64,000 nt of DNA from assembly GCF_003018255.1 (NCBI RefSeq), contig NZ_CP027440.1. The stretch is one strand, 5' to 3'. Origin of the DNA: Escherichia coli. Its GTDB lineage: Bacteria > Pseudomonadota > Gammaproteobacteria > Enterobacterales > Enterobacteriaceae. Shown here piece after piece: positions 590 through 45,885 of the stretch. Numbering within the stretch: position 1 is the stretch's first letter; each line of letters begins with the position of its first letter. The notes under the pieces are model-generated. The model was given only the letters and a program-made list of their open reading frames with translations, had not been told where the DNA came from and searched no databases. A program made the position numbers and the translations under genes.

Positions 590-674
590 GCCGAAGTGGC
601 GAAATCGGTAGACGCAGTTGATTCAAAATCAACCGTAGAAATACGTGCCGGTTCGAGTCCGGCCTTCGGCACCA
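590..674 (+). tRNA. leuX: tRNA-Leu, anticodon CAA
   Basis: 85-nt GCCGAAGTGGCGAAATCGGTAGACGCAGTTGATTCAAAATCAACCGTAGAAATACGTGCCGGTTCGAGTCCGGCCTTCGGCACCA with a CAA anticodon loop, long variable arm and 3' CCA. A P4-type integrase gene follows immediately downstream. Confidence 0.9.
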
Positions 675-896: not shown

Positions 897-2573
897 ATGG
901 CACTAACAGATCGCGCTATAGTCCACGCCAAGCCTTGTGGCAAGCCGTATAAGCTCAGTGACTCGCATGGACTTTACCTGCTGGTTAACCCTAACGGTTC
1001 AAAACGCTGGTACATCAAGTACCGCTTTGTAAACAAAGAGAAAAAGCTCGCTTTAGGCCCTTATCCGCTTTTGACGCTTGCACAGGCAAGACGCATGCGT
1101 GAAGAGGCACAATTATTGCTGATTTCCGGCATCGATCCGAGTGCACGCCGAAAAGCAGAACGCCTTGCGATAACGCCGGAACATACGTTTGAGTCTGTGG
1201 CACGTGAATGGGTCACCAGTAACGTGAACTGGTCGGCGGAACATAAGAAGCGGGTGCTGCGTTATTTCGAGCTTTACGTATTCCCCACGAACGGCAGCTG
1301 TGACATCACCAAAATGAAGGTCAAAGATCTGCTGGTGCCCATCAAGGAAGTGGAGAAAGCGGGCAAACTGGATGTTGCTTCCCGGCTTCAGCAGCGCACT
1401 GCCTGCGTGATGCGCTACGCCGTCCAGAACGGCATTATCGATCATAACCCTGCATCAGATTTAACCGGCGCGGTCTCCACGCCCAAAGTACGGCATCACC
1501 CGGCGTTGGATCTGAATCTTATCCCTGATTTCCTGGAAAGAATCGACGATTACAAAGGCCGTCAACTGACTCAACTGGCGGTAAAACTGGCACTGCTGCT
1601 GTTTATCCGCTCCAGCGAACTGCGCTTTGCCCGCTGGGATGAAATTGATCTGCGTAACGCCATGTGGACCATCCCCGCTGAGCGTGAGCCGATCCCCGGC
1701 GTTAAATATTCAGCGCGTGGGGCGAAGATGCACTCCCCACACCTGGTCCCATTGTCACGTCAGGCCATCGAACTGCTGCACGAGGTGCGGCAGCATTGCC
1801 GACCGGGAACTGAACTGGTGTTCCCCGGCGATCACAATTACCGCAAGCCGATGAGTGAAAACACCATCAACAAAGCGCTGCGGGTGATGGGCTACGACAC
1901 CCAGAAAGATGTCTGTGGCCACGGTTTTCGCACTATGGCCTGTAGCGCGCTGGTGGAGTCGGGGCTGTGGTCAAGCGACGCGGTAGAGCGCCAGATGAGC
2001 CATCAGGAGCGCAAGCGCGTGCGTGCGGCGTATATCCACAAGGCGCAGCATCTCGAAGAACGTTGGGAGATGATGCAGTGGTGGGCGGATTATCTGGATG
2101 CAAACCGGTTCAGGCATGTTGTGCCGTATGGCTTCAAAAAGTCGCCGGGAGGCGCACTCGACCATATGAGTTTCCAGGAGCGCAATGACCGGCAGCTAGA
2201 GGAGCTGAAAGCCAGAATACTGGCTGACTCGGAATGGCTGACGGCGTCTGAATTATCCGCAAAAGCGGGCTTTCGTTCCGCCGATCCTGATGCTGGTCCG
2301 AAAGGCTGGAAAGCCGCCGGGAAGATATTCTCGCTGAAGGTCGATGGTGAGGATTTATACCCTGATTATGTTCTGGATGAGAAAATGCGGCCTCTCAAGG
2401 TTGTCCGTTTGATTCTTTCACTGTTTAAGGAGCGTAAAACACCGTGGGGGCTGGCTATCTGGTTTGGCTCGGCTAATCGCAGGTTGAGAGGTGGGAGGCC
2501 GAAAGACCTGCTGATTTCGAAGTCAGAGTTGGTTCTGATGGCGGCGCAGGAGGAGGTGGAGTCGGGGGAGTAG
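897..2573 (+). CDS. P4-type tyrosine integrase with an unusual ~140-aa C-terminal extension
   Basis: 558-aa ORF starting MALTDRAIVHAKPCGKPYKLSDSHGLYLLVNPNGSKRWYIKYRF, typical P4/CP4-57-type integrase N-terminus with catalytic-domain motifs (HGFR, RAAY). The ORF runs ~140 aa beyond the usual integrase end (...WADYLDANR). Confidence 0.85.
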   Translation: MALTDRAIVHAKPCGKPYKLSDSHGLYLLVNPNGSKRWYIKYRFVNKEKKLALGPYPLLTLAQARRMREEAQLLLISGIDPSARRKAERLAITPEHTFESVAREWVTSNVNWSAEHKKRVLRYFELYVFPTNGSCDITKMKVKDLLVPIKEVEKAGKLDVASRLQQRTACVMRYAVQNGIIDHNPASDLTGAVSTPKVRHHPALDLNLIPDFLERIDDYKGRQLTQLAVKLALLLFIRSSELRFARWDEIDLRNAMWTIPAEREPIPGVKYSARGAKMHSPHLVPLSRQAIELLHEVRQHCRPGTELVFPGDHNYRKPMSENTINKALRVMGYDTQKDVCGHGFRTMACSALVESGLWSSDAVERQMSHQERKRVRAAYIHKAQHLEERWEMMQWWADYLDANRFRHVVPYGFKKSPGGALDHMSFQERNDRQLEELKARILADSEWLTASELSAKAGFRSADPDAGPKGWKAAGKIFSLKVDGEDLYPDYVLDEKMRPLKVVRLILSLFKERKTPWGLAIWFGSANRRLRGGRPKDLLISKSELVLMAAQEEVESGE

Positions 2574-2735
2574 GAATGGTTACTCAACCCTGAAAGAATG
2601 CGTCCAACTACTCTTTACCCTTCTTTCTTTAATGGAAAATGACGTTTGGAAGGTTGAATAAGGCATCGCATTTCTGGCGGTCTTTTTTTGATCATTTACG
2701 TTGCTTCTTTCTTTATTTGTTCATAACATTGTTTT

Positions 2736-2752
2736 GTTCATGATTCATGAAC
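2736..2752 (+). promoter_or_regulatory. 17-bp palindrome GTTCATGATTCATGAAC upstream of the two-gene NTase cassette; candidate operator
   Basis: Palindrome seen directly, about 20 bp upstream of the start codon at 2757; a near-identical copy lies at 4582-4598. Confidence 0.45.
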
Positions 2753-2756
2753 AGTT

Positions 2757-3770
2757 ATGAGGTGTGAACAAATGAAGGAAGAACAGCTTTTGTCTGATGC
2801 GATAGAGAATCTGCCAAAAGGATTCCATTTGCAGTATGAACATAGCGGTAGACATGGTAAGCACGATGCCTGGGGTAAGCTAACAGGGCCGGATGGTGAG
2901 TCAGTGATATTTGCTCTGGAAGTAAAATTTATCCACCGTAAAGAGTCACTGATGGCTGTTCGCGAACAAATGGTTCGCTTTCCTGCGGATTTTCCTGTGC
3001 TGCTGGTGTGTAACCGCCTGACGTCTGCACTGGCGGAATATTGCGCCGACAGCCAGATCAACTTTATCGATACGGCAGGGAATGCCCGTATCCAGGTTCC
3101 AGGCTTGTATGTGCGGATCGAAGGCCGCTATGAAAAGAAACCCGTTTCCGCCAGCAGTCGTTTTGCTGAAGGGGTGATGAAGCTTCTTTTTGTTTTGCTG
3201 TCTAGCCCAGAGACCCTGAACGAGACTTACCGCAGTCTGGCCGGAAAGGCAGGTATCTCTCTGGGAATGGTCAGCAAGGCTTTTGATTATCTCGAAGCGC
3301 AACGCTATTTCCGCAAATCGAAGAAGGGGCGTCGCTTAATCAATGAAGGCGAGTTAGAGGCTTTGTGGCTGAAAGATTATGCTACAGCTTTGCGCCCTAA
3401 GCTGGATTCGCTTTCTTTATCCGCGCCTGTTTCATGGGATGAGTTGACGCTTGCGTCCGGGGAATACTGGAGCGGCGAGATTGCGGCGGCAAAGCTGAGC
3501 GGAGGATACCTGATACCAGAAAATGGCGTGATTTTTACATCCCATCCGTTGTTACAAAGGCGAAAGGAACTGGGACTAAAACCTGTTCCGGGGGGGAAAC
3601 TACAGCTGATCGCCGGTTTTTGGGGGAACTTTGTACTGAATCACAAAGCCGAGGCGATGCTATGCGTGGCTGAACTGCTGGCAAGCGGGGATGACAGAAA
3701 CTGGGAAACAGCAAGGATAATCAATGACAAATATCTTCACCTTAATGAATCCGATCTCTTCAGCTACTGA
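2757..3770 (+). CDS. Hypothetical protein, first gene of two-gene cassette; possible DNA-binding or antitoxin-like partner of the nucleotidyltransferase
   Basis: 337-aa ORF (alternative start 2772). N-terminal segment PDGESVIFALEVKF resembles a PD-(D/E)xK motif; central segment GISLGMVSKAFDYLEAQRYFRK looks like a helix-turn-helix. Overlaps the downstream gene. Confidence 0.55.
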   Translation: MRCEQMKEEQLLSDAIENLPKGFHLQYEHSGRHGKHDAWGKLTGPDGESVIFALEVKFIHRKESLMAVREQMVRFPADFPVLLVCNRLTSALAEYCADSQINFIDTAGNARIQVPGLYVRIEGRYEKKPVSASSRFAEGVMKLLFVLLSSPETLNETYRSLAGKAGISLGMVSKAFDYLEAQRYFRKSKKGRRLINEGELEALWLKDYATALRPKLDSLSLSAPVSWDELTLASGEYWSGEIAAAKLSGGYLIPENGVIFTSHPLLQRRKELGLKPVPGGKLQLIAGFWGNFVLNHKAEAMLCVAELLASGDDRNWETARIINDKYLHLNESDLFSY

Positions 3771-4533
3771 AACGTTACTGAGTCAGATCAACCGTATTTG
3801 CACCGCTCAGGGGATCCCGTTTTTTATTGCAGGTGCAACGGCTCGTGAAATTCTGCTCCATCATATACACAGCAGAAGTATTGGTCGCCGAACCCGTGAT
3901 ATTGATATTGCCGTCTTTGTGGATAGCTGGCCGAGATTTGATGCGCTTAAAAATGCTTTCCTTGCTGAAGGGGCAGAAGTTGTCCAAGGTAATGCCCATC
4001 GTATGATTGTCAAAGGGATCGAGCTAGATATTATTCCTTTTGGTGGTGTTGCTGAAGGAAATCAAATTGCCTGGCCACCAGAACGTGAGATCATAATGGC
4101 TGTGGATGGATTTGCCGAAGTCTTTTCTCATACCGTAGTTGTGCGGCTGGATAACAGCGAAAATATTCCGTTCTGCTCCTTGCCAGGACTGGCTCTGTTA
4201 AAACTTTTTGCATGGCGTGATCGTGGGCATGGGAGTACTAAAGACGCGACCGATCTCTTTAAGATTATCTGTGAATATGGTGTTATCGAGAATGAACGCA
4301 TCTATGAATCGCCCGTCGAAGGGGAACGCCTGAACTGGGATCCCATACGTATGGGCGCTTTTCTGTTGGGAAGCGATATAGCGACAATTAGTGAACACTC
4401 ATCCTTGCAGGATTTACTCCATCTTGATAAAGAACGCCTGATCGATGTGATAGTACGACAACATGACGTGGGTGATGCTGGGATTGAGCAGATCATCAAT
4501 GATTTCTGGGATGGTATGGCAAGTGATGGTTGA
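3724..4533 (+). CDS. Nucleotidyltransferase-fold protein (Pol-beta superfamily; AbiEii/DUF1814-like or MNT-like)
   Basis: 269-aa ORF with the minimal NTase signature AGATAREILL...RRTRDIDIAVFVD (Gly-rich loop followed by DxD) and a downstream acidic motif GIELDIIPFG. Start codon uncertain; overlaps the upstream gene. Confidence 0.6.
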   Translation: MTNIFTLMNPISSATETLLSQINRICTAQGIPFFIAGATAREILLHHIHSRSIGRRTRDIDIAVFVDSWPRFDALKNAFLAEGAEVVQGNAHRMIVKGIELDIIPFGGVAEGNQIAWPPEREIIMAVDGFAEVFSHTVVVRLDNSENIPFCSLPGLALLKLFAWRDRGHGSTKDATDLFKIICEYGVIENERIYESPVEGERLNWDPIRMGAFLLGSDIATISEHSSLQDLLHLDKERLIDVIVRQHDVGDAGIEQIINDFWDGMASDG

Positions 4534-4581
4534 GGATGTAGTTTTAGATGAAATGTTCACAACAGAGTTTTGTTCATGAAT

Positions 4582-4598
4582 CATGAACGGTATTATTG
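4582..4598 (+). promoter_or_regulatory. Second copy of palindrome GTTCATGAATCATGAAC, part of a ~45-bp direct repeat of the cassette leader
   Basis: 4563-4607 repeats 2721-2772 at roughly 85 percent identity, including the palindrome and a GTGAACAA-ATG start context. Confidence 0.45.
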
Positions 4599-4678
4599 TG
4601 AACAATGGCAGGGCGTAACGCCAACTGCCCGATTAAGATGCGCTTATGTTATCAATAATGCCAGCCCAGAGTCAGTCG

Positions 4679-4797
4679 CGACATCATCAAACTGAAGGTC
4701 AAAGGCTTGCTGGTTCCCATCAAAGATAGTGGAGAACGCAGGTAAACTTGATGTTCCACCTTCCACGGCGCACCGCACCTTCGGCATGATGCGCTAA
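4679..4797 (+). pseudogene. Fragment of a second P4-type integrase gene
   Basis: Nucleotide alignment to 1310-1420 of the intact integrase (gacatcatcaaactgaaggtcaaagg... versus gacatcaccaaaatgaaggtcaaaga...), roughly 75 percent identity with a 1-nt indel. Translates to DIIKLKVKGLLVPIKD then stop. Confidence 0.55.
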
Positions 4798-4840
4798 TAT
4801 TATGGCTATATAGGTATTGAAAAGATAAAATATTATCACT

Positions 4841-5329
4841 ATGGCTAAAAAAACGGCTCCCTTAGTTCCCGGTACTAATCAGTTGCTTGCTGAGTTTGGC
4901 GAACGGCTTAAGCTGGCGCGACTGCGACGTAAGCTCACAGCGAAGCGGGTTGCTGAGCGAGCCGGGATGTCGCCAATGACCTTGCGTTCTCTTGAATCAG
5001 GCGGGACGGGCGTGACAATCGGCGCTTATTTGTCAGTTATGCAGATTTTGGGTCTTGAAAAGGATCTGAACAAACTTGCCGCTGAGGATGAACAGGGACG
5101 CCAACTTCAGGATTCCCGGCTAATAAATAAAACGCGTGTTTCTCGTCCTGCTGCTATCTCTCACACAAACAGGCATACCGGAAACGTGATAAAAAACGAT
5201 GCCTTCGACAAGCAATTCTCGACATCACAAGAAAAATCAATCGATTCTGAAGTTAAAACAGAAGTCGTGACATCTGCATCTCTTGCTGCACTGCTAAAAC
5301 CAATAAAGAAACCCAGAAAAGGTAGCTGA
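4841..5329 (+). CDS. Xre-family helix-turn-helix transcriptional regulator with low-complexity C-terminal tail
   Basis: 162-aa ORF; HTH segment [23 protein letters not shown]; good start context. Confidence 0.6.
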
Positions 5330-5692
5330 CACGCTGGAATTTTTGTATTGAAACGAGGGACTATAGATTTCGATAGCAAAAAATAAAGCCTGCTGATGAT
5401 ATGTTTAAAAAATGCCAAAAAATGTACATATGGCGTTGATATGTCGATGCTGTAAACATATTTTGGCGTTATGTCGATAAAACTGGTTTTTTTAAACATA
5501 TCGTCATGCTTAATCCAACCGCTCAATCAGTCTTATATCTGTTATGGAAAATGCTTGTAAAATGGCGCGTTCTGCCATCTGGCAATGTTCATATTTACTG
5601 GCTCGAGGAATATCGTCCCCCCTTAATTTCCATGAAAAGTAATTTTAATTCATTTAGTTATTAATCTTTTCTCCGCTGAGAATATGAATTTT

Positions 5693-5710
5693 TATCCCCT
5701 ATAGGGGATA
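5693..5710 (+). promoter_or_regulatory. Perfect 18-bp palindrome TATCCCCTATAGGGGATA (TATCC-N8-GGATA, HipB-operator-like)
   Basis: Seen directly; it overlaps the first in-frame ATG of the downstream HTH gene, so the second ATG at 5740 is the likely start. Confidence 0.55.
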
Positions 5711-5739
5711 TGCTCAAAATATCTATCCTGGGGGATAAA

Positions 5740-6081
5740 ATGAACGTAACCTCACCCAAAATGTTGTCTCAGGCAATCAGGGATGCACGCAAGCAACGTA
5801 ACCTGACCCAGCGTGAAACTGCAGCAAGTATGGGCATGAAACAGTCAACGGTTTCAGAGTTTGAGAACCATCCTGAGGGGACCAGCCTGGATACGCTCTT
5901 TAAGCTGCTTGCCGCTCTGGACCTTAAGCTTCAGGTCGTAAGCTGGAGGGGTAAAAAAACTCTTCTGATGGCTGGGAGCAGGAGTGGTGATCTGTGGAAA
6001 TATGAACAAAAAGGCCATGGCGCTATCCGGACGGAACCACCATTTTCACTAGCGTACCATCTGGATTTCCAGAGCACATAA
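5740..6081 (+). CDS. HipB-like Xre-family HTH regulator (antitoxin-like), apparently without a HipA kinase partner
   Basis: TQRETAASMGMKQSTVSEFENHPEGTSLDTLFKLLAALDLKLQV resembles the HipB HTH core; GGGGGA ribosome-binding site before ATG 5740; no kinase-length ORF downstream. Confidence 0.6.
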   Translation: MNVTSPKMLSQAIRDARKQRNLTQRETAASMGMKQSTVSEFENHPEGTSLDTLFKLLAALDLKLQVVSWRGKKTLLMAGSRSGDLWKYEQKGHGAIRTEPPFSLAYHLDFQST

Positions 6082-6207
6082 GAGAAGCTATTTTTGCATC
6101 AGTCAGCGCGTATTCCGTAGCCATCTCGGCAGTAGTTGAAACAGTAAAAAATGCCCCTATTTCATGGCTAATTAACCGCTAAATTCCAGCCATGGAGGAA
6201 ACCACCG

Positions 6208-6474
6208 ATGTCACCTCGGACACACCGCCAGCTCGTAAGTGTTGAAGTGATGTGGCCTGCTCAGACGCTACCGCTTCCCCTACAACAGGTAGTCGAAGCA
6301 TTGAATCAGGGCGAAACGCCCGATCAGATTATTATCCGCATGAACCAACGGGGTCTGCTGGCGTGGCGTGAGGATGCATCCGCGCAGGATACACACGATA
6401 TCTTTCAGGTACGTCTGGACAACCAGAATGAGGCGCGATTTCTCTGCCGCTACGTTACGTTGCCGCTGCACTGA
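6208..6474 (+). CDS. Hypothetical small protein (88 aa)
   Basis: ORF preceded by a strong GGAGGA Shine-Dalgarno; no recognisable motif. Confidence 0.4.
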   Translation: MSPRTHRQLVSVEVMWPAQTLPLPLQQVVEALNQGETPDQIIIRMNQRGLLAWREDASAQDTHDIFQVRLDNQNEARFLCRYVTLPLH

Positions 6475-6585: not shown

Positions 6586-7239
6586 ATGAAGAAGAAACTG
6601 CCAGACCAGCTTTCCAGGGAATGCATTATTGCGGCTATGCGTGCCTATGATGAAGGTGTACGCCACCAGTTCAGCGAGTCCCGGCTGTATGATGTGGTCT
6701 TTGAAGGGCGCAGTTATCCACCGAAAGCTATAGTCGGTATTGCTGCTTCAAATATGACTGGCGTTGAGTTTTCCCCTGAAGATTTTAGTGGTGGTATCAA
6801 GTCGAAATGCGTCAAGTTGCTTACCGATCAAGGGTTCCAGATCGTTGAGAAACATTTGGGTAACGAGCAGCCCGCCATCAGTATTTTTCCTGATGAACTG
6901 CCACCGCAGAGCGTATTTACTGAAGGTGCAGCTACGCAGGTAACGGTTAATCGCTATGAACGCGACCGTAAGGCCCGACAGGCCGCATTAGCCTGGCATG
7001 GTTGTCTGTGCAAAGTATGTGGTATTGATATGATGAAGGTGTATGGCGAGATAGCGAAAGGTTTTATCCATATACACCACCTGATTCCGCTATCAGACAT
7101 CAAAGAGAATTACTCTCTGGATCCCAAAAAAGATTTTATTCCCGTCTGCCCAAATTGCCACGCCATGTTGCATCGGCGTAATCCGCCTTTTTCGCCTGAA
7201 GAATTGAAATCAATTATTGAATATCATGCGGCTCTTTAG
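6586..7239 (+). CDS. HNH endonuclease with N-terminal domain of unknown function (possible modification-dependent restriction enzyme); paralog of 61354-62004
   Basis: C-terminal HNH motif CKVCGIDMMKVYGEIAKGFIHIHHLIPLSDIK...PVCPNCHAMLHRR; about 60 percent amino-acid identity to the ORF at 61354. Confidence 0.7.
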   Translation: MKKKLPDQLSRECIIAAMRAYDEGVRHQFSESRLYDVVFEGRSYPPKAIVGIAASNMTGVEFSPEDFSGGIKSKCVKLLTDQGFQIVEKHLGNEQPAISIFPDELPPQSVFTEGAATQVTVNRYERDRKARQAALAWHGCLCKVCGIDMMKVYGEIAKGFIHIHHLIPLSDIKENYSLDPKKDFIPVCPNCHAMLHRRNPPFSPEELKSIIEYHAAL

Positions 7240-12938: not shown

Positions 12939-14296
12939 CGCGGGCTGTCCGGCTGCGGGTTATTGAGGTTGTGCAGACGGCTGTCGCTGTCGTCCGGCAC
13001 CTCCACCACCTGTCCCTGAAGCTGGTCGCGCTGCTGTTTGCGTTGCAGGATCTGGCTGGCGGTATTGCGCGTCAGTGCCTGGCGGAAATCGAGTTCCAGC
13101 TTCAACTGGTTCAGCTCTTCATCCAGTTGGGCGGTGGTTTTGCCCAGGCTCTCCTGCGCCTCTTTGACGTTGGCGATATTGGGTTCACGCATACCTGCGA
13201 GCAGCGTACGCCGGGCCAGCAACGCCTGCTCGGTGACGCGGGCCAGCGCCAGTTCTCCCGCCAGCCGTTCGGTGAGGACGGCAACGTCCGGATCGTCGCG
13301 CAGCGCCTCGACCACGCCGCGGGTCAGTTGCATAGAACCGCCGGAAGCTTTCGCCAAATTGTCGAAGCCGGGTTTCTGACTGCCATTAACCAGATCTGTC
13401 AGGAGGGGCAGGATCTTCGCCTTTTCTTCGTCGATCAGCGGATGCAGGCCGATCCCCGCCTGCGCGCCGGAACGCGCATCCGGATCGTCGGTGACCTGCG
13501 CCACGCTGATGGTCTGCTCGCCAACGACGCGGGTCATCCACCCGGCGGCCTCTTCAGGGGATGTCCAGGTGCTACAAAGTTCCCCGTCGCATTCAGAGGA
13601 GCTAAGAGAAGTAGTGCTGGTGGCAGGCTGCTGGTTGAGGATATTCCATCCTGCGGCGGTGGCGTCATGGACTACCTTAATCGGCAGCTGGCCTTTGCCG
13701 CCGCGCTTTTCACCGCCCACCCAGCGTTTACCCTTTTCGGCGGCCTCTTTTGCCGCTTTCTGGTCGGTGCGGATGGCATCGTTATCGCTGGCGGCGAGGG
13801 ACTGGTAGTTCTCCGCTTTGGCTCCGGAAAACCAGGCGGAATCGGCCGCCAAATCGGTCATCTTCTCCGCCATTTTCTGGCAGTTCAGCAGAGACTTATC
13901 AAAATCCAGCCGCCCCTGCAGCACGCCGTTGGTCAGCAGATCATAAAGCTGCGGATTGGCGCGCTGGATAATCATCGCGGGCAGGCTGGCGACCGCCCCG
14001 GTGGCACTCTGGATAACGTTGCCCATCAGTTGCTGGAAGCCGTCGGTGATGCCGTTGAGCTGGTTGCGCACGGTGGTGTCGATGTCGAAATTGCCGCACA
14101 TCATATCGGCGTTCCAGCCAAGACCTAAGCTAAGCGGCGAGGGGCTACGGCGTACCGGAGGCGGCATGACCGCTTCACCGCCGCCAATCTGGTAGTAAAG
14201 CAGGTCGTCAACCGCGCCTCGCGTGCGGAAACTGTAGTCGTCTGCCGCCACGCAAACCCCGGCGAAAAACAATAAGACCAGGAAAAGGGCTCTCAT
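12935..14296 (-). CDS. ICE conjugative-transfer protein, TraH-like, secreted
   Basis: Signal peptide MRALFLVLLFFAGVCVA with GGAGG ribosome-binding site; 4-bp overlap with the downstream gene. Confidence 0.55.
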   Translation of the reverse strand: MRALFLVLLFFAGVCVAADDYSFRTRGAVDDLLYYQIGGGEAVMPPPVRRSPSPLSLGLGWNADMMCGNFDIDTTVRNQLNGITDGFQQLMGNVIQSATGAVASLPAMIIQRANPQLYDLLTNGVLQGRLDFDKSLLNCQKMAEKMTDLAADSAWFSGAKAENYQSLAASDNDAIRTDQKAAKEAAEKGKRWVGGEKRGGKGQLPIKVVHDATAAGWNILNQQPATSTTSLSSSECDGELCSTWTSPEEAAGWMTRVVGEQTISVAQVTDDPDARSGAQAGIGLHPLIDEEKAKILPLLTDLVNGSQKPGFDNLAKASGGSMQLTRGVVEALRDDPDVAVLTERLAGELALARVTEQALLARRTLLAGMREPNIANVKEAQESLGKTTAQLDEELNQLKLELDFRQALTRNTASQILQRKQQRDQLQGQVVEVPDDSDSRLHNLNNPQPDSPR

Positions 14297-14307
14297 CACC
14301 GCCTCCG

Positions 14308-15231
14308 TTAACCCGTACTGCCGAGAAAGGTTTGCCCCCGGCGCGGACAGCATTTATAGGGCCGCCACAGCGTCCAGGCGTACGCGCCATCCTCCGCCAG
14401 TTTGTTGGCGTAGGTGTCAGTGGCACTGCCATCCGGGAACACCGAACAGGCGGCGGATTTTTTCGGCGTGAGCATTTGCCAGCGATGGTTATCGCTGTCG
14501 CCTTCGATAACCGGGGAGGGCGGCCAGTACCCGGCGCGCGATGAGGCGGTCAGCGGCGTGTAGAGATGCGGTTGCCCGGTACGGGTCACCAGATCGGCCG
14601 CGCGCTGGGCGATAACGGCGGCGGCTTTATAGTCGTGCGTCTGGTTGATGGCTCCGGCTCGCGGGTAGATATTGCCCCACATATCGCCGTTCTGACCGAC
14701 TTCCCGCATGCCCGGCGTCAGCGCCTCCGGGTATGTCATTTCCGGCACACCGCTGCGCCACGCCAGCGTATCGGGTTGACTCAGAAAGTACGGTTGAAAA
14801 GGCTGCGATGAAGGTGAGCAGATATAGCCAAACTGGGTGAAAAATTTTGCCAGTTCATCACCCGCCGGGAAGCCGATGGCATCGGCATTCTTAAAGCGGA
14901 CCTTGCTGTGCTGGCTGGCAGAACGAGGATTCGTATCGCCGCCGCCTTCGGCAACACCGGGCAACGGTGGGCTGAGTAACGACATCTCCGCCCACGGATT
15001 CTGCCCGGTGTTGCTGTAAGCCGACACCACCAGATCCGGGCGGAAATGGCTGACCTTCACCGACGTGCGTACCGTACAGCCGAACGGCGTGCAGTACAGC
15101 CAGTAGCACAGGCCGACCACCCGGTATTTCACACAGTCCGGCGTAAGCGCAGAGGCTGCGATCTCCGGCGTAGTAATCGCCCTGAGGGGGAAAGCAGCGC
15201 ACAGCAGCAGAAGGATGTATTGGGCTCGCAT
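14308..15231 (-). CDS. ICE conjugative-transfer protein, TraU-like, secreted
   Basis: Signal peptide MRAQYILLLLCAAFPLRA; Cys-rich segment CVKYRVVGLCYWLYCTPFGC. Confidence 0.55.
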   Translation of the reverse strand: MRAQYILLLLCAAFPLRAITTPEIAASALTPDCVKYRVVGLCYWLYCTPFGCTVRTSVKVSHFRPDLVVSAYSNTGQNPWAEMSLLSPPLPGVAEGGGDTNPRSASQHSKVRFKNADAIGFPAGDELAKFFTQFGYICSPSSQPFQPYFLSQPDTLAWRSGVPEMTYPEALTPGMREVGQNGDMWGNIYPRAGAINQTHDYKAAAVIAQRAADLVTRTGQPHLYTPLTASSRAGYWPPSPVIEGDSDNHRWQMLTPKKSAACSVFPDGSATDTYANKLAEDGAYAWTLWRPYKCCPRRGQTFLGSTG

Positions 15232-45778: not shown

Positions 45779-45885
45779 CTTAACACTCCGAAAAATGAGG
45801 AATATTCCTCAGAGAGGATCATCAGACTGCCAATTTGAACGAGCAATCAGGGAAAAGTAAAAGTGTGATGCAGGAAACAGGTTAT

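What the first reader, a model, noticed from the sequence alone, without database searches (positions are those of the whole stretch)
4679..4797. Fragment of a second P4-type integrase gene downstream of the NTase cassette
About 120 bp aligns to an internal segment (roughly codons 135-175) of the intact integrase at ~75 percent identity with a frameshift. This points to a second tRNA-targeting element whose integrase was mostly deleted, so the left 5 kb of the island is a composite of at least two acquisition events.
Basis: seen in the sequence. Interest (0 to 1): 0.35.

Follow-up and report, generated by a model that had tools for sequence, protein, structure and literature searches.

The report
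Dead integrase fragment inside an ICE
A 120-base leftover of a second integrase gene sits between two toxin-antitoxin cargo modules of a conjugative element inserted at the leuX tRNA gene of E. coli; it is a real but ordinary, non-functional scar of past recombination between related mobile elements.

Summary
Window 4680-4796 aligns to codons 136-174 of the resident integrase gene (897-2573). Identity is 78% with four indels, a frameshift and a stop codon (BLAST E 8e-20, z = 38 against shuffles). The host element is a ~60-kb MobH-relaxase ICE of the SPI-7/PFGI-1/ICEclc class, inserted at leuX.

The fragment is not a recent copy of the resident gene. It is about equally distant (73-86%) from every allele of this 558-aa integrase family, and it shares bases with non-resident alleles.

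It lies at a module boundary. The AbiEi/AbiEii cassette to its left occurs without it in a Franconibacter ICE. The hipB(A) cassette to its right occurs without it in an Atlantibacter ICE and beside rplI in ~1,040 E. coli genomes. The right junction overlaps the cassette edge by 4-8 bases of microhomology.

The same relic occurs in 6 of 5,426 complete E. coli genomes, in Salmonella enterica and in several assemblies. One variant has lost 20 more bases.

No genome with an intact second integrase at this position was found. The composite reading is supported, but the route (a tandem ICE array followed by deletions) is inferred. Interest is low.

The parts
590..674 (+). tRNA-Leu(CAA), leuX: attachment site and left end (attL) of the ICE
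   Evidence: ARAGORN; Rfam tRNA; PGAP tRNA-Leu flanked by ahr in identical E. coli genomes
897..2573 (+). Resident, intact 558-aa P4-type tyrosine integrase of the ICE (arm-binding, central and catalytic domains plus a ~140-aa C-terminal extension)
   Evidence: ORF; Pfam Arm-DNA-bind_3, Phage_int_M, Phage_integrase; NCBIfam integrase domain
2718..2771 (+). Repeat R: abiE upstream region containing the palindrome TGTTCATGATTCATGAACA (likely AbiEi operator/promoter; inferred)
   Evidence: 83% direct repeat with 4554-4605
2772..4533 (+).
   Evidence: Pfam AbiEi_2 (above cutoff) and AbiEii (E 1.8e-4, 21.9 bits, just under the 22.5-bit curated cutoff); PGAP names; colinear with Franconibacter L006 up to window 4611
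4554..4605 (+). Repeat R': second copy of the abiE upstream region, forming the right end of the AbiE module
   Evidence: also present after abiEii in L006 and retained in L068, where abiE itself is deleted
4612..4672 (.). 61-bp spacer of unassigned origin between the AbiE module and the relic
   Evidence: No significant colinear integrase homology. One marginal match to another part of the L007 int (1 of 300 shuffles) is not relied on
4673..4797 (+). Integrase relic: decayed copy of codons ~134-174 (part of the Phage_int_M central domain) of a 558-aa-family integrase, with a frameshift, four indels and a stop
4789..4840 (+). Left edge of the hipB(A) cassette, including the hipB upstream region. 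It overlaps the relic by the microhomology (ATGY)GCTA
   Evidence: Homology to Atlantibacter L008 and to the E. coli NRG857C rplI-hipBA locus starts here
4841..5329 (+). hipB-like HTH antitoxin gene, orphan here (no hipA)
   Evidence: Pfam HTH_31/HTH_3; NCBIfam couple_hipB match, sub-threshold; 81% aa to the L008 HTH, which is followed by a 422-aa HipA; tblastn finds no hipA remnant in the window
60562..60590 (+). attR of the ICE: CGAGTCCGGCCTTCG-ACCTTCG-CACCA, a copy of the tRNA 3' end
   Evidence: 15-nt perfect match to 654-668. The DNA to its right also lies to the right of other leuX islands in 778 E. coli genomes

Best explanation
Window 4673-4797 is a non-functional relic of a second integrase gene. 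That gene belonged to the same 558-aa P4-type family as the resident integrase of this leuX ICE.

Most likely history (inferred). Two related ICEs came together, for example as a tandem array at leuX or in an earlier host. One carried int-abiE. The other carried int-hipBA, an arrangement that still exists in Atlantibacter. Illegitimate deletions then fused the DNA downstream of abiE to the middle of the second integrase gene. A further deletion fused codon 174 of that gene to the left edge of the hipBA cassette, across a 4-8 nt microhomology. hipA was lost later.

The relic has no arm-binding domain, no catalytic domain and no open frame, so it does nothing. It now drifts inside a ~3.8-kb cargo block (window ~2600-6400) that is exchanged as a unit between diverged ICE backbones.

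Shown: the homology, the decay, both module boundaries, the distribution, and further erosion in one relative. Inferred: the tandem-array route and the order of events.
For: Homology: E 8e-20, z = 38.

Decay: a frameshift plus four indels and a stop.

Family origin. In E. coli only the 558-aa leuX ICE integrases match the relic: 43 of 5,426 genomes, 6 of them through the relic itself.

Not a copy of the resident allele.
- The relic is 73-86% identical to every allele, while the alleles are 87-99% identical to the resident allele over this segment.
- It shares AAACTG with L006, L007 and L009 and GGTTCC with L006, not with the resident gene.

Module boundaries.
- L006 is colinear with the window from int through abiE to 4611, then skips to 5396.
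- L008 has int, 225 bp, then hipB-hipA, with homology to the window starting at 4789.
- The same hipBA cassette edge is seen next to rplI in ~1,040 E. coli genomes.
- The junction overlaps in (ATGY)GCTA.

Linkage with hipB. The relic is 77% identical to L008 int and hipB is 80% identical to L008 hipB, so the two show similar divergence. This fits their having been linked in one donor.

No constraint.
- L068-L070 carry the same block but have lost 20 more bases inside the relic.
- There is no promoter-like site in 4606-4840.
- RNA folding gives z = -1.15.
- There is no Rfam match.
- PGAP annotates nothing there in six genomes.

Relics are common around this integrase family. L008 carries a different one (codons 385-543), and many other loci carry partial second integrases.

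Tandem arrays and hybrid ICEs are documented for other ICE families (review PMC5812530).
Against: No internal att (tRNA 3'-end) copy lies near the relic.

No genome with an intact second integrase at this position, and no tandem array of these ICEs, was found.

The resident int is closest (99% aa) to that of L008, the hipBA-type ICE, and not to L006, the abiE-type ICE. The simple two-parent picture therefore needs extra homologous exchange. Such exchange is evident, but it weakens the reconstruction.

The 61-bp spacer to the left of the relic is unexplained.

The search with the relic's translation returned no candidates for technical reasons. A close extant integrase lineage is therefore not excluded.
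Confidence: 0.75

Rival explanations
1. Passenger relic. The fragment was never part of an element integrated at this site. A ~780-bp block (spacer + relic + hipB, window 4612-5395) was imported ready-made by recombination from another ICE or locus, where the integrase had already been destroyed.
For: Relative to Franconibacter L006, window 4612-5395 behaves as a single insertion between R' and the inverted-repeat element. In every genome found, the relic occurs only inside the same R'-spacer-relic-hipB block. The cargo block 2600-6400 is nearly identical between ICEs whose int and backbone differ by 5-7%, which shows block exchange.
Against: This only moves the integrase-destroying event into an unknown donor. 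No such donor was found. L006's contig ends 138 bp after the junction, so a deletion in L006 is equally possible.
Confidence: 0.18
2. Local duplication. A piece of the resident integrase gene was copied downstream and then decayed in place.
For: Same strand, same element, only 3.3 kb away.
Against: The relic is no closer to the resident allele (77.7%) than to alleles from other genera (73-86%). It carries states seen only in non-resident alleles. Its 22% divergence contrasts with under 1% divergence of the surrounding cargo block between ICE variants.
Confidence: 0.04
3. Functional non-coding element. The fragment has been co-opted as a promoter, 5' UTR or regulatory site for the hipB-like gene, or it encodes a small peptide.
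For: It lies 44 bp upstream of hipB. It is 97-99% conserved among the variants found. Short ORFs overlap it.
Against: The conservation matches that of the neighbouring DNA and reflects recent common ancestry. L068-L070 have lost 20 bp of it yet keep an intact hipB ORF. The hipBA cassette lacks it in L008 and next to rplI. There is no promoter-like site, no significant fold and no Rfam match.
Confidence: 0.03

Closest known systems
Integrase pseudogenes and remnants in tRNA-linked genomic islands of E. coli (for example the mosaic, module-built GI-pheV islands; PMC11537424)
   Same: Derived from a P4-type integrase. Sits in a mosaic island at a tRNA hotspot (leuX is listed among these hotspots in PMC11537424). 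Non-functional.
   Different: It is an internal 120-bp piece lying 4 kb from the tRNA, between two toxin-antitoxin cassettes, not a tRNA-adjacent truncated gene. The host element is a full conjugative element, not a degraded pathogenicity island.
Tandem arrays and hybrid formation or accretion of ICEs (SXT/R391 arrays and hybrids; ICESt1/ICESt3 accretion; as cited in PMC5812530)
   Same: Two related elements that use one attachment site, followed by deletion or recombination, would give exactly this order: int1, cargo of element 1, remnant of int2 in the same orientation, cargo of element 2.
   Different: No array, no internal att site and no intact second integrase was observed here, so the route is inferred. 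The junctions are illegitimate (microhomology), not RecA- or Bet/Exo-mediated exchanges between homologous backbones.
ICEclc / ICEHin1056 / SPI-7 / pKLC102-PFGI-1 class ICEs (host element)
   Same: P4-family integrase next to a tRNA gene. MobH/TraI_2 relaxase. TIGR037xx 'integrating conjugative element' proteins, PilL2, and STY4528/STY4534 replication proteins.
   Different: Membership concerns the host ICE, not the fragment. Which named ICE this is was not established.

Membership tests
P4-type tyrosine integrase gene (functional member) | N-terminal arm-type DNA-binding domain (Pfam Arm-DNA-bind_3) | tested here: not met
   The relic covers only codons ~134-174. There is no homology to the left of 4673. 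The resident gene has the domain.
P4-type tyrosine integrase gene (functional member) | Central SAM-like domain (Pfam Phage_int_M, residues 98-192 of the resident protein) | tested here: inconclusive
   The relic is homologous to about 40 of the ~95 residues of this domain at the DNA level (E 8e-20), but it is frameshifted. It shows descent from the domain, not possession of it.
P4-type tyrosine integrase gene (functional member) | C-terminal catalytic domain (Pfam Phage_integrase) in an intact reading frame | tested here: not met
   tblastn finds no further integrase-like sequence in the window beyond 4674-4794. The frame is broken and ends in TAA.
P4-type tyrosine integrase gene (functional member) | Lies next to its tRNA or att site | tested here: not met
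   The relic is 4 kb from leuX. The only copy of the tRNA 3' end near the left end is the tRNA itself.
Gene relic (pseudogene fragment) | Significant homology to a functional gene, truncation at both ends, a disrupted frame, and further erosion in relatives | tested here: met
   An extra 20-bp deletion is present in L068-L070.
Scar of tandem ICE accretion | Second integrase remnant in the same orientation, lying between cargo modules that occur separately in relatives | tested here: met
   Same strand. abiE alone in L006 and hipBA alone in L008.
Scar of tandem ICE accretion | Internal att copy, or a relative that retains the array or an intact second integrase | tested here: not met
   No att copy. 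None of 54 genome loci, 6 E. coli genomes or 8 hipB-context loci shows an intact second integrase at this position.
SPI-7/PFGI-1/ICEclc-class ICE (host element) | tRNA-adjacent P4-family integrase, MobH/TraI_2 relaxase, TIGR037xx conjugation genes, flanking att repeats | tested here: met
   (PF07514 TraI_2). attR at 60562-60590. Transfer activity was not tested.

The most novel reading that the evidence does not exclude
The integrase-proximal cargo region of this ICE class may grow by a recurrent process. When related ICEs meet, toxin-antitoxin or defence cassettes become fused to, and destroy, the integrase gene of one partner. Integrase relics would then systematically mark cassette junctions. 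Two examples are codons 136-174 here and codons 385-543 in Atlantibacter L008. The surviving hybrid would keep a single integrase plus the addiction modules of both parents.
Probability: 0.1. Interest if true: 0.35.

Novelty: new member of a known kind. Interest (0 to 1): 0.12.

Why it matters
It matters little beyond bookkeeping. The relic is unannotated in RefSeq. It is a handy marker that the int-abiE-hipB end of this leuX ICE is a hybrid of at least two related elements. It also tags a ~3.8-kb cargo block that moves between diverged ICE backbones in E. coli and Salmonella. It illustrates, but does not extend, the known mosaic evolution of ICEs and tRNA-linked islands.

Tried and rejected
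1. Searched for a closer, intact source integrase.
- Scanned 100,044 species genomes with the resident integrase. Of 54 loci, none is closer to the relic than 86% over 77 nt.
- Searched proteins with the 40-aa frameshift-corrected translation. The tool found no candidate sharing three 5-mers, so this was uninformative.
- Ran an exact or degenerate DNA pattern through the metagenome contigs: 0 hits.
- Ran a distant search of plasmids: only the hipB upstream region matched.

2. Tested whether integrase homology extends beyond 4673-4797. It does not.

3. Tried to assign the 61-bp spacer. The best local match was to an unrelated part of the L007 int (1 of 300 shuffles). It is not colinear and was judged unreliable. 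A possible inverted match to int codons 179-184 (E 0.88) was dismissed.

4. Considered a single-event model in which hipBA inserted into one integrase gene, leaving the window's 5' relic and L008's 3' relic. Rejected, because a conserved inverted-repeat element lies between hipBA and L008's relic, and because that element is backbone-associated in L004 and L027.

5. Considered conservation of the relic as a sign of function. Rejected: the window and L068 are ~98.5% identical across the whole of 4508-5155, and only the hipB 3' end diverges, which indicates a mosaic.

6. Checked for RNA structure, Rfam families and promoters. Nothing was found.

Full report
**Setting.** The window starts in the E. 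coli ahr-leuX region. tRNA-Leu(CAA) lies at 590-674. It is followed by a 558-codon integrase ORF at 897-2573, which has Arm-DNA-bind_3, Phage_int_M and Phage_integrase domains.

The window is essentially identical (99.9% over the ~14 kb compared) to E. coli JNE23-011. PGAP annotation of that record shows a ~60-kb integrative conjugative element. It carries a MobH relaxase, TraD, TraG, PilL2, many TIGR037xx/PFL_46xx 'integrating conjugative element' proteins, and STY4528/STY4534 replication proteins. The element therefore belongs to the SPI-7/PFGI-1/ICEclc class. A copy of the tRNA 3' end at 60562-60590 marks attR.

**The observation.** Window 4680-4796 aligns on the same strand to 1302-1417, which is codons 136-174 of the integrase.
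- There are 94 identities in 121 columns (77.7%), with four gaps and E = 8e-20 against the whole window.
- The local alignment score is 104. A thousand dinucleotide-preserving shuffles give a mean of 20.5 and a maximum of 32, so z = 38.
- The reading frame shifts after about 4730, three more indels follow, and the frame ends in TAA.
- Against other alleles the homology starts at about 4673.
- It does not extend colinearly in either direction.

**Which integrase did it come from?** In 5,426 complete E. coli genomes, a sensitive search with the fragment hits only 43 genomes. Six carry the fragment itself. The rest match through their 558-aa leuX ICE integrase gene. The source was therefore a member of this particular integrase family.

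It was not a recent copy of the resident gene.
- Over this segment the other family alleles are 87-99% identical to the resident allele. These alleles come from E. coli, Atlantibacter, Franconibacter, Kluyvera, Citrobacter and Kosakonia.
- The fragment is 73-86% identical to every one of them.
- At several positions it agrees with non-resident alleles: AAACTG with L006, L007 and L009, and GGTTCC with L006.

**What surrounds it.** To the left lies an AbiEi/AbiEii type IV toxin-antitoxin pair at 2772-4533. The AbiEii Pfam match falls just under its curated cutoff, but PGAP gives the same name. The pair is flanked by two copies of its own upstream region, R at 2718-2771 and R' at 4554-4605. The copies are 83% identical and contain the palindrome TGTTCATGAWTCATGAACA. 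To the right lies a hipB-like HTH gene at 4841-5329.

Three relatives define the module edges.
- *Franconibacter helveticus L006.* It is colinear with the window (88.6% identity) from the tRNA through int, abiE and R' to window 4611. It then continues with what is window 5396. It has no relic and no hipB.
- *Atlantibacter subterranea L008.* Its integrase is 99% identical at the protein level. A 225-bp spacer follows, then hipB and a 422-aa hipA. It has no abiE and no relic. Its homology to the window starts at 4789.
- *The chromosomal hipBA cassette.* The same cassette (76% nt identity) sits downstream of rplI in about 1,040 E. coli genomes. It starts at the same base.

The integrase homology ends in ...GATGCGCTA. 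The cassette begins (A)ATG(Y)GCTAATAT. The two overlap by 4-8 bases. This is the signature of an illegitimate, microhomology-mediated junction. The 61 bp between R' and the relic (4612-4672) could not be assigned.

**Distribution and decay.** A search with the HipB-like protein recovered more contexts.
- A Salmonella enterica assembly (L064) and several read-archive assemblies (L065-L067, L071) have the same order: int, abiE, R', spacer, relic, hipB. The block around the relic is 97-99% identical to the window's.
- Three metagenomic or read-archive contigs (L068-L070) have lost abiE; window 2636-4507 is missing. They keep the last 26 nt of abiEii, R', the spacer, the relic and hipB. Their relic has lost a further 20 bp.

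The apparent conservation of the relic reflects recent common ancestry. The window and L068 are about 98.5% identical throughout 4508-5155, and they diverge only in the 3' end of hipB, which is mosaic.

Between the window and E. coli C11 or A31, the cargo block at ~2600-6400 differs by under 0.5%. The integrase and backbone differ by 5-7%, and the first 100 integrase residues are only 44-68% identical. The block, relic included, is therefore exchanged as a unit.

**Function.** Nothing suggests one.
- No promoter-like site lies in 4606-4840.
- The RNA fold is no better than shuffles, z = -1.15.
- There is no Rfam match.
- PGAP annotates nothing there in six genomes.
- The hipBA cassette does without the relic elsewhere.

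**Most likely history (inferred).** Two related ICEs met. One carried int-abiE, as in L006. The other carried int-hipBA, as in L008. A tandem array is the obvious way for them to meet, because they share leuX. Such arrays and the hybrids they produce are documented for other ICE families (PMC5812530).
- A deletion then joined the DNA downstream of abiE to the middle of the second integrase.
- Another deletion joined codon 174 to the hipBA edge.
- hipA was lost later.

The order and orientation fit this route: int1, abiE, relic on the same strand, hipB. So does the similar divergence of the relic and of hipB from their L008 counterparts (77% and 80%).

Several points count against certainty.
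- No internal att copy lies near the relic.
- No array or intact second integrase was found in any relative.
- The resident integrase is closest to that of L008, so extra homologous exchange must be assumed.

A passenger origin, in which the spacer-relic-hipB block was imported ready-made, cannot be excluded.

Integrase relics are common around this family. L008 has a different one (codons 385-543, at 13961-14348), and a dozen other loci carry partial second integrases.

**Verdict.** This is a real, correctly described but ordinary pseudogene scar. The composite reading is supported. The 'second tRNA-targeting element' is plausible but unproven. Novelty and interest are low.

Noticed in passing
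window 2718-2771 and 4554-4605: The AbiE cassette is bracketed by two 83%-identical copies of its own upstream region. Each contains the palindrome TGTTCATGAWTCATGAACA, probably the AbiEi operator. The downstream copy persists in L006, and in L068 even after abiE itself was deleted. It may be the promoter of a lost second cassette or a recombination substrate.
   Followed up: partly
window 4841-5329; L008 11955-13712; L060 7045-8807: The HTH gene next to the relic is a hipB-like antitoxin left without its hipA toxin. The complete hipBA pair is present in the Atlantibacter ICE. It is also a chromosomal cassette downstream of rplI in about 1,040 of 5,426 E. coli genomes.
   Followed up: partly
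window 5394-5506 (also L008 13843-13949, L004 11163-11340, L006 13786-13814): A ~110-bp element with 19-nt terminal inverted repeats (TGATGATATGTTTAAAAAA / TTTTTTAAACATATCGTCA) and internal direct repeats (ATATGGCGTTGATATGTCGAT). It is conserved in the cargo region of several ICE variants, and cargo differs on both sides of it. Its function is unknown; it could be a regulator-binding site or an insertion hotspot.
   Followed up: partly
L008 13961-14348: The Atlantibacter ICE carries a different integrase relic. It covers codons ~385-543, including the family-specific C-terminal extension, at 53% aa and 72-78% nt identity. It lies downstream of hipBA and the inverted-repeat element.
   Followed up: partly
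window 897-1200 versus L002/L003: The resident integrase is mosaic between E. coli ICE variants. Residues 1-100 (the arm-binding domain) are only 44-68% identical, while the rest is 93-99% identical. The adjacent cargo block 2600-6400 is over 99.5% identical.
   Followed up: partly
window 60562-62004: attR carries a 6-7-nt internal duplication (CGAGTCCGGCCTTCGACCTTCGCACCA). The ~200 bp after it resemble the tRNA-to-integrase spacers of Providencia, Proteus and Photorhabdus P4-type integrases, but no integrase follows. Further on, an HNH endonuclease gene (61354-62004) is ~72% identical to the ICE's own HNH gene (6586-7239). This looks like an older, degraded leuX element. It lies to the right of other leuX islands in 778 E. 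coli genomes.
   Followed up: partly
window 897-2573 (NZ_AP045067.1 424317-425564): PGAP marks the integrase of JNE23-011 as a pseudogene 'missing C-terminus' (416 codons). However, the 558-codon ORF is intact and matches the window's integrase exactly, and the equal-length alleles of strains C11 and A31 are annotated as intact. This is probably an annotation artefact caused by the unusual C-terminal extension.
   Followed up: no
window 4637-4652 and 4788-4803: A 16-nt imperfect direct repeat (GATGCGCTTATGTTAT / GATGCGCTAATATTAT) brackets the relic. The second copy spans the relic-hipBA junction. Repeats of this size are at chance level in the region, so it may be coincidence.
   Followed up: no
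window ~45885-47690 (NZ_AP045067.1 469305-471110): The ICE's DNA topoisomerase III gene is annotated as a pseudogene with an internal stop. The element may therefore be impaired.
   Followed up: no
L068 1952-2060: In three metagenomic or read-archive contigs the whole abiE cassette (window 2636-4507) has been deleted. The junction lies at a short AATGG/GATGG microhomology, and 26 nt of abiEii remain.
   Followed up: partly
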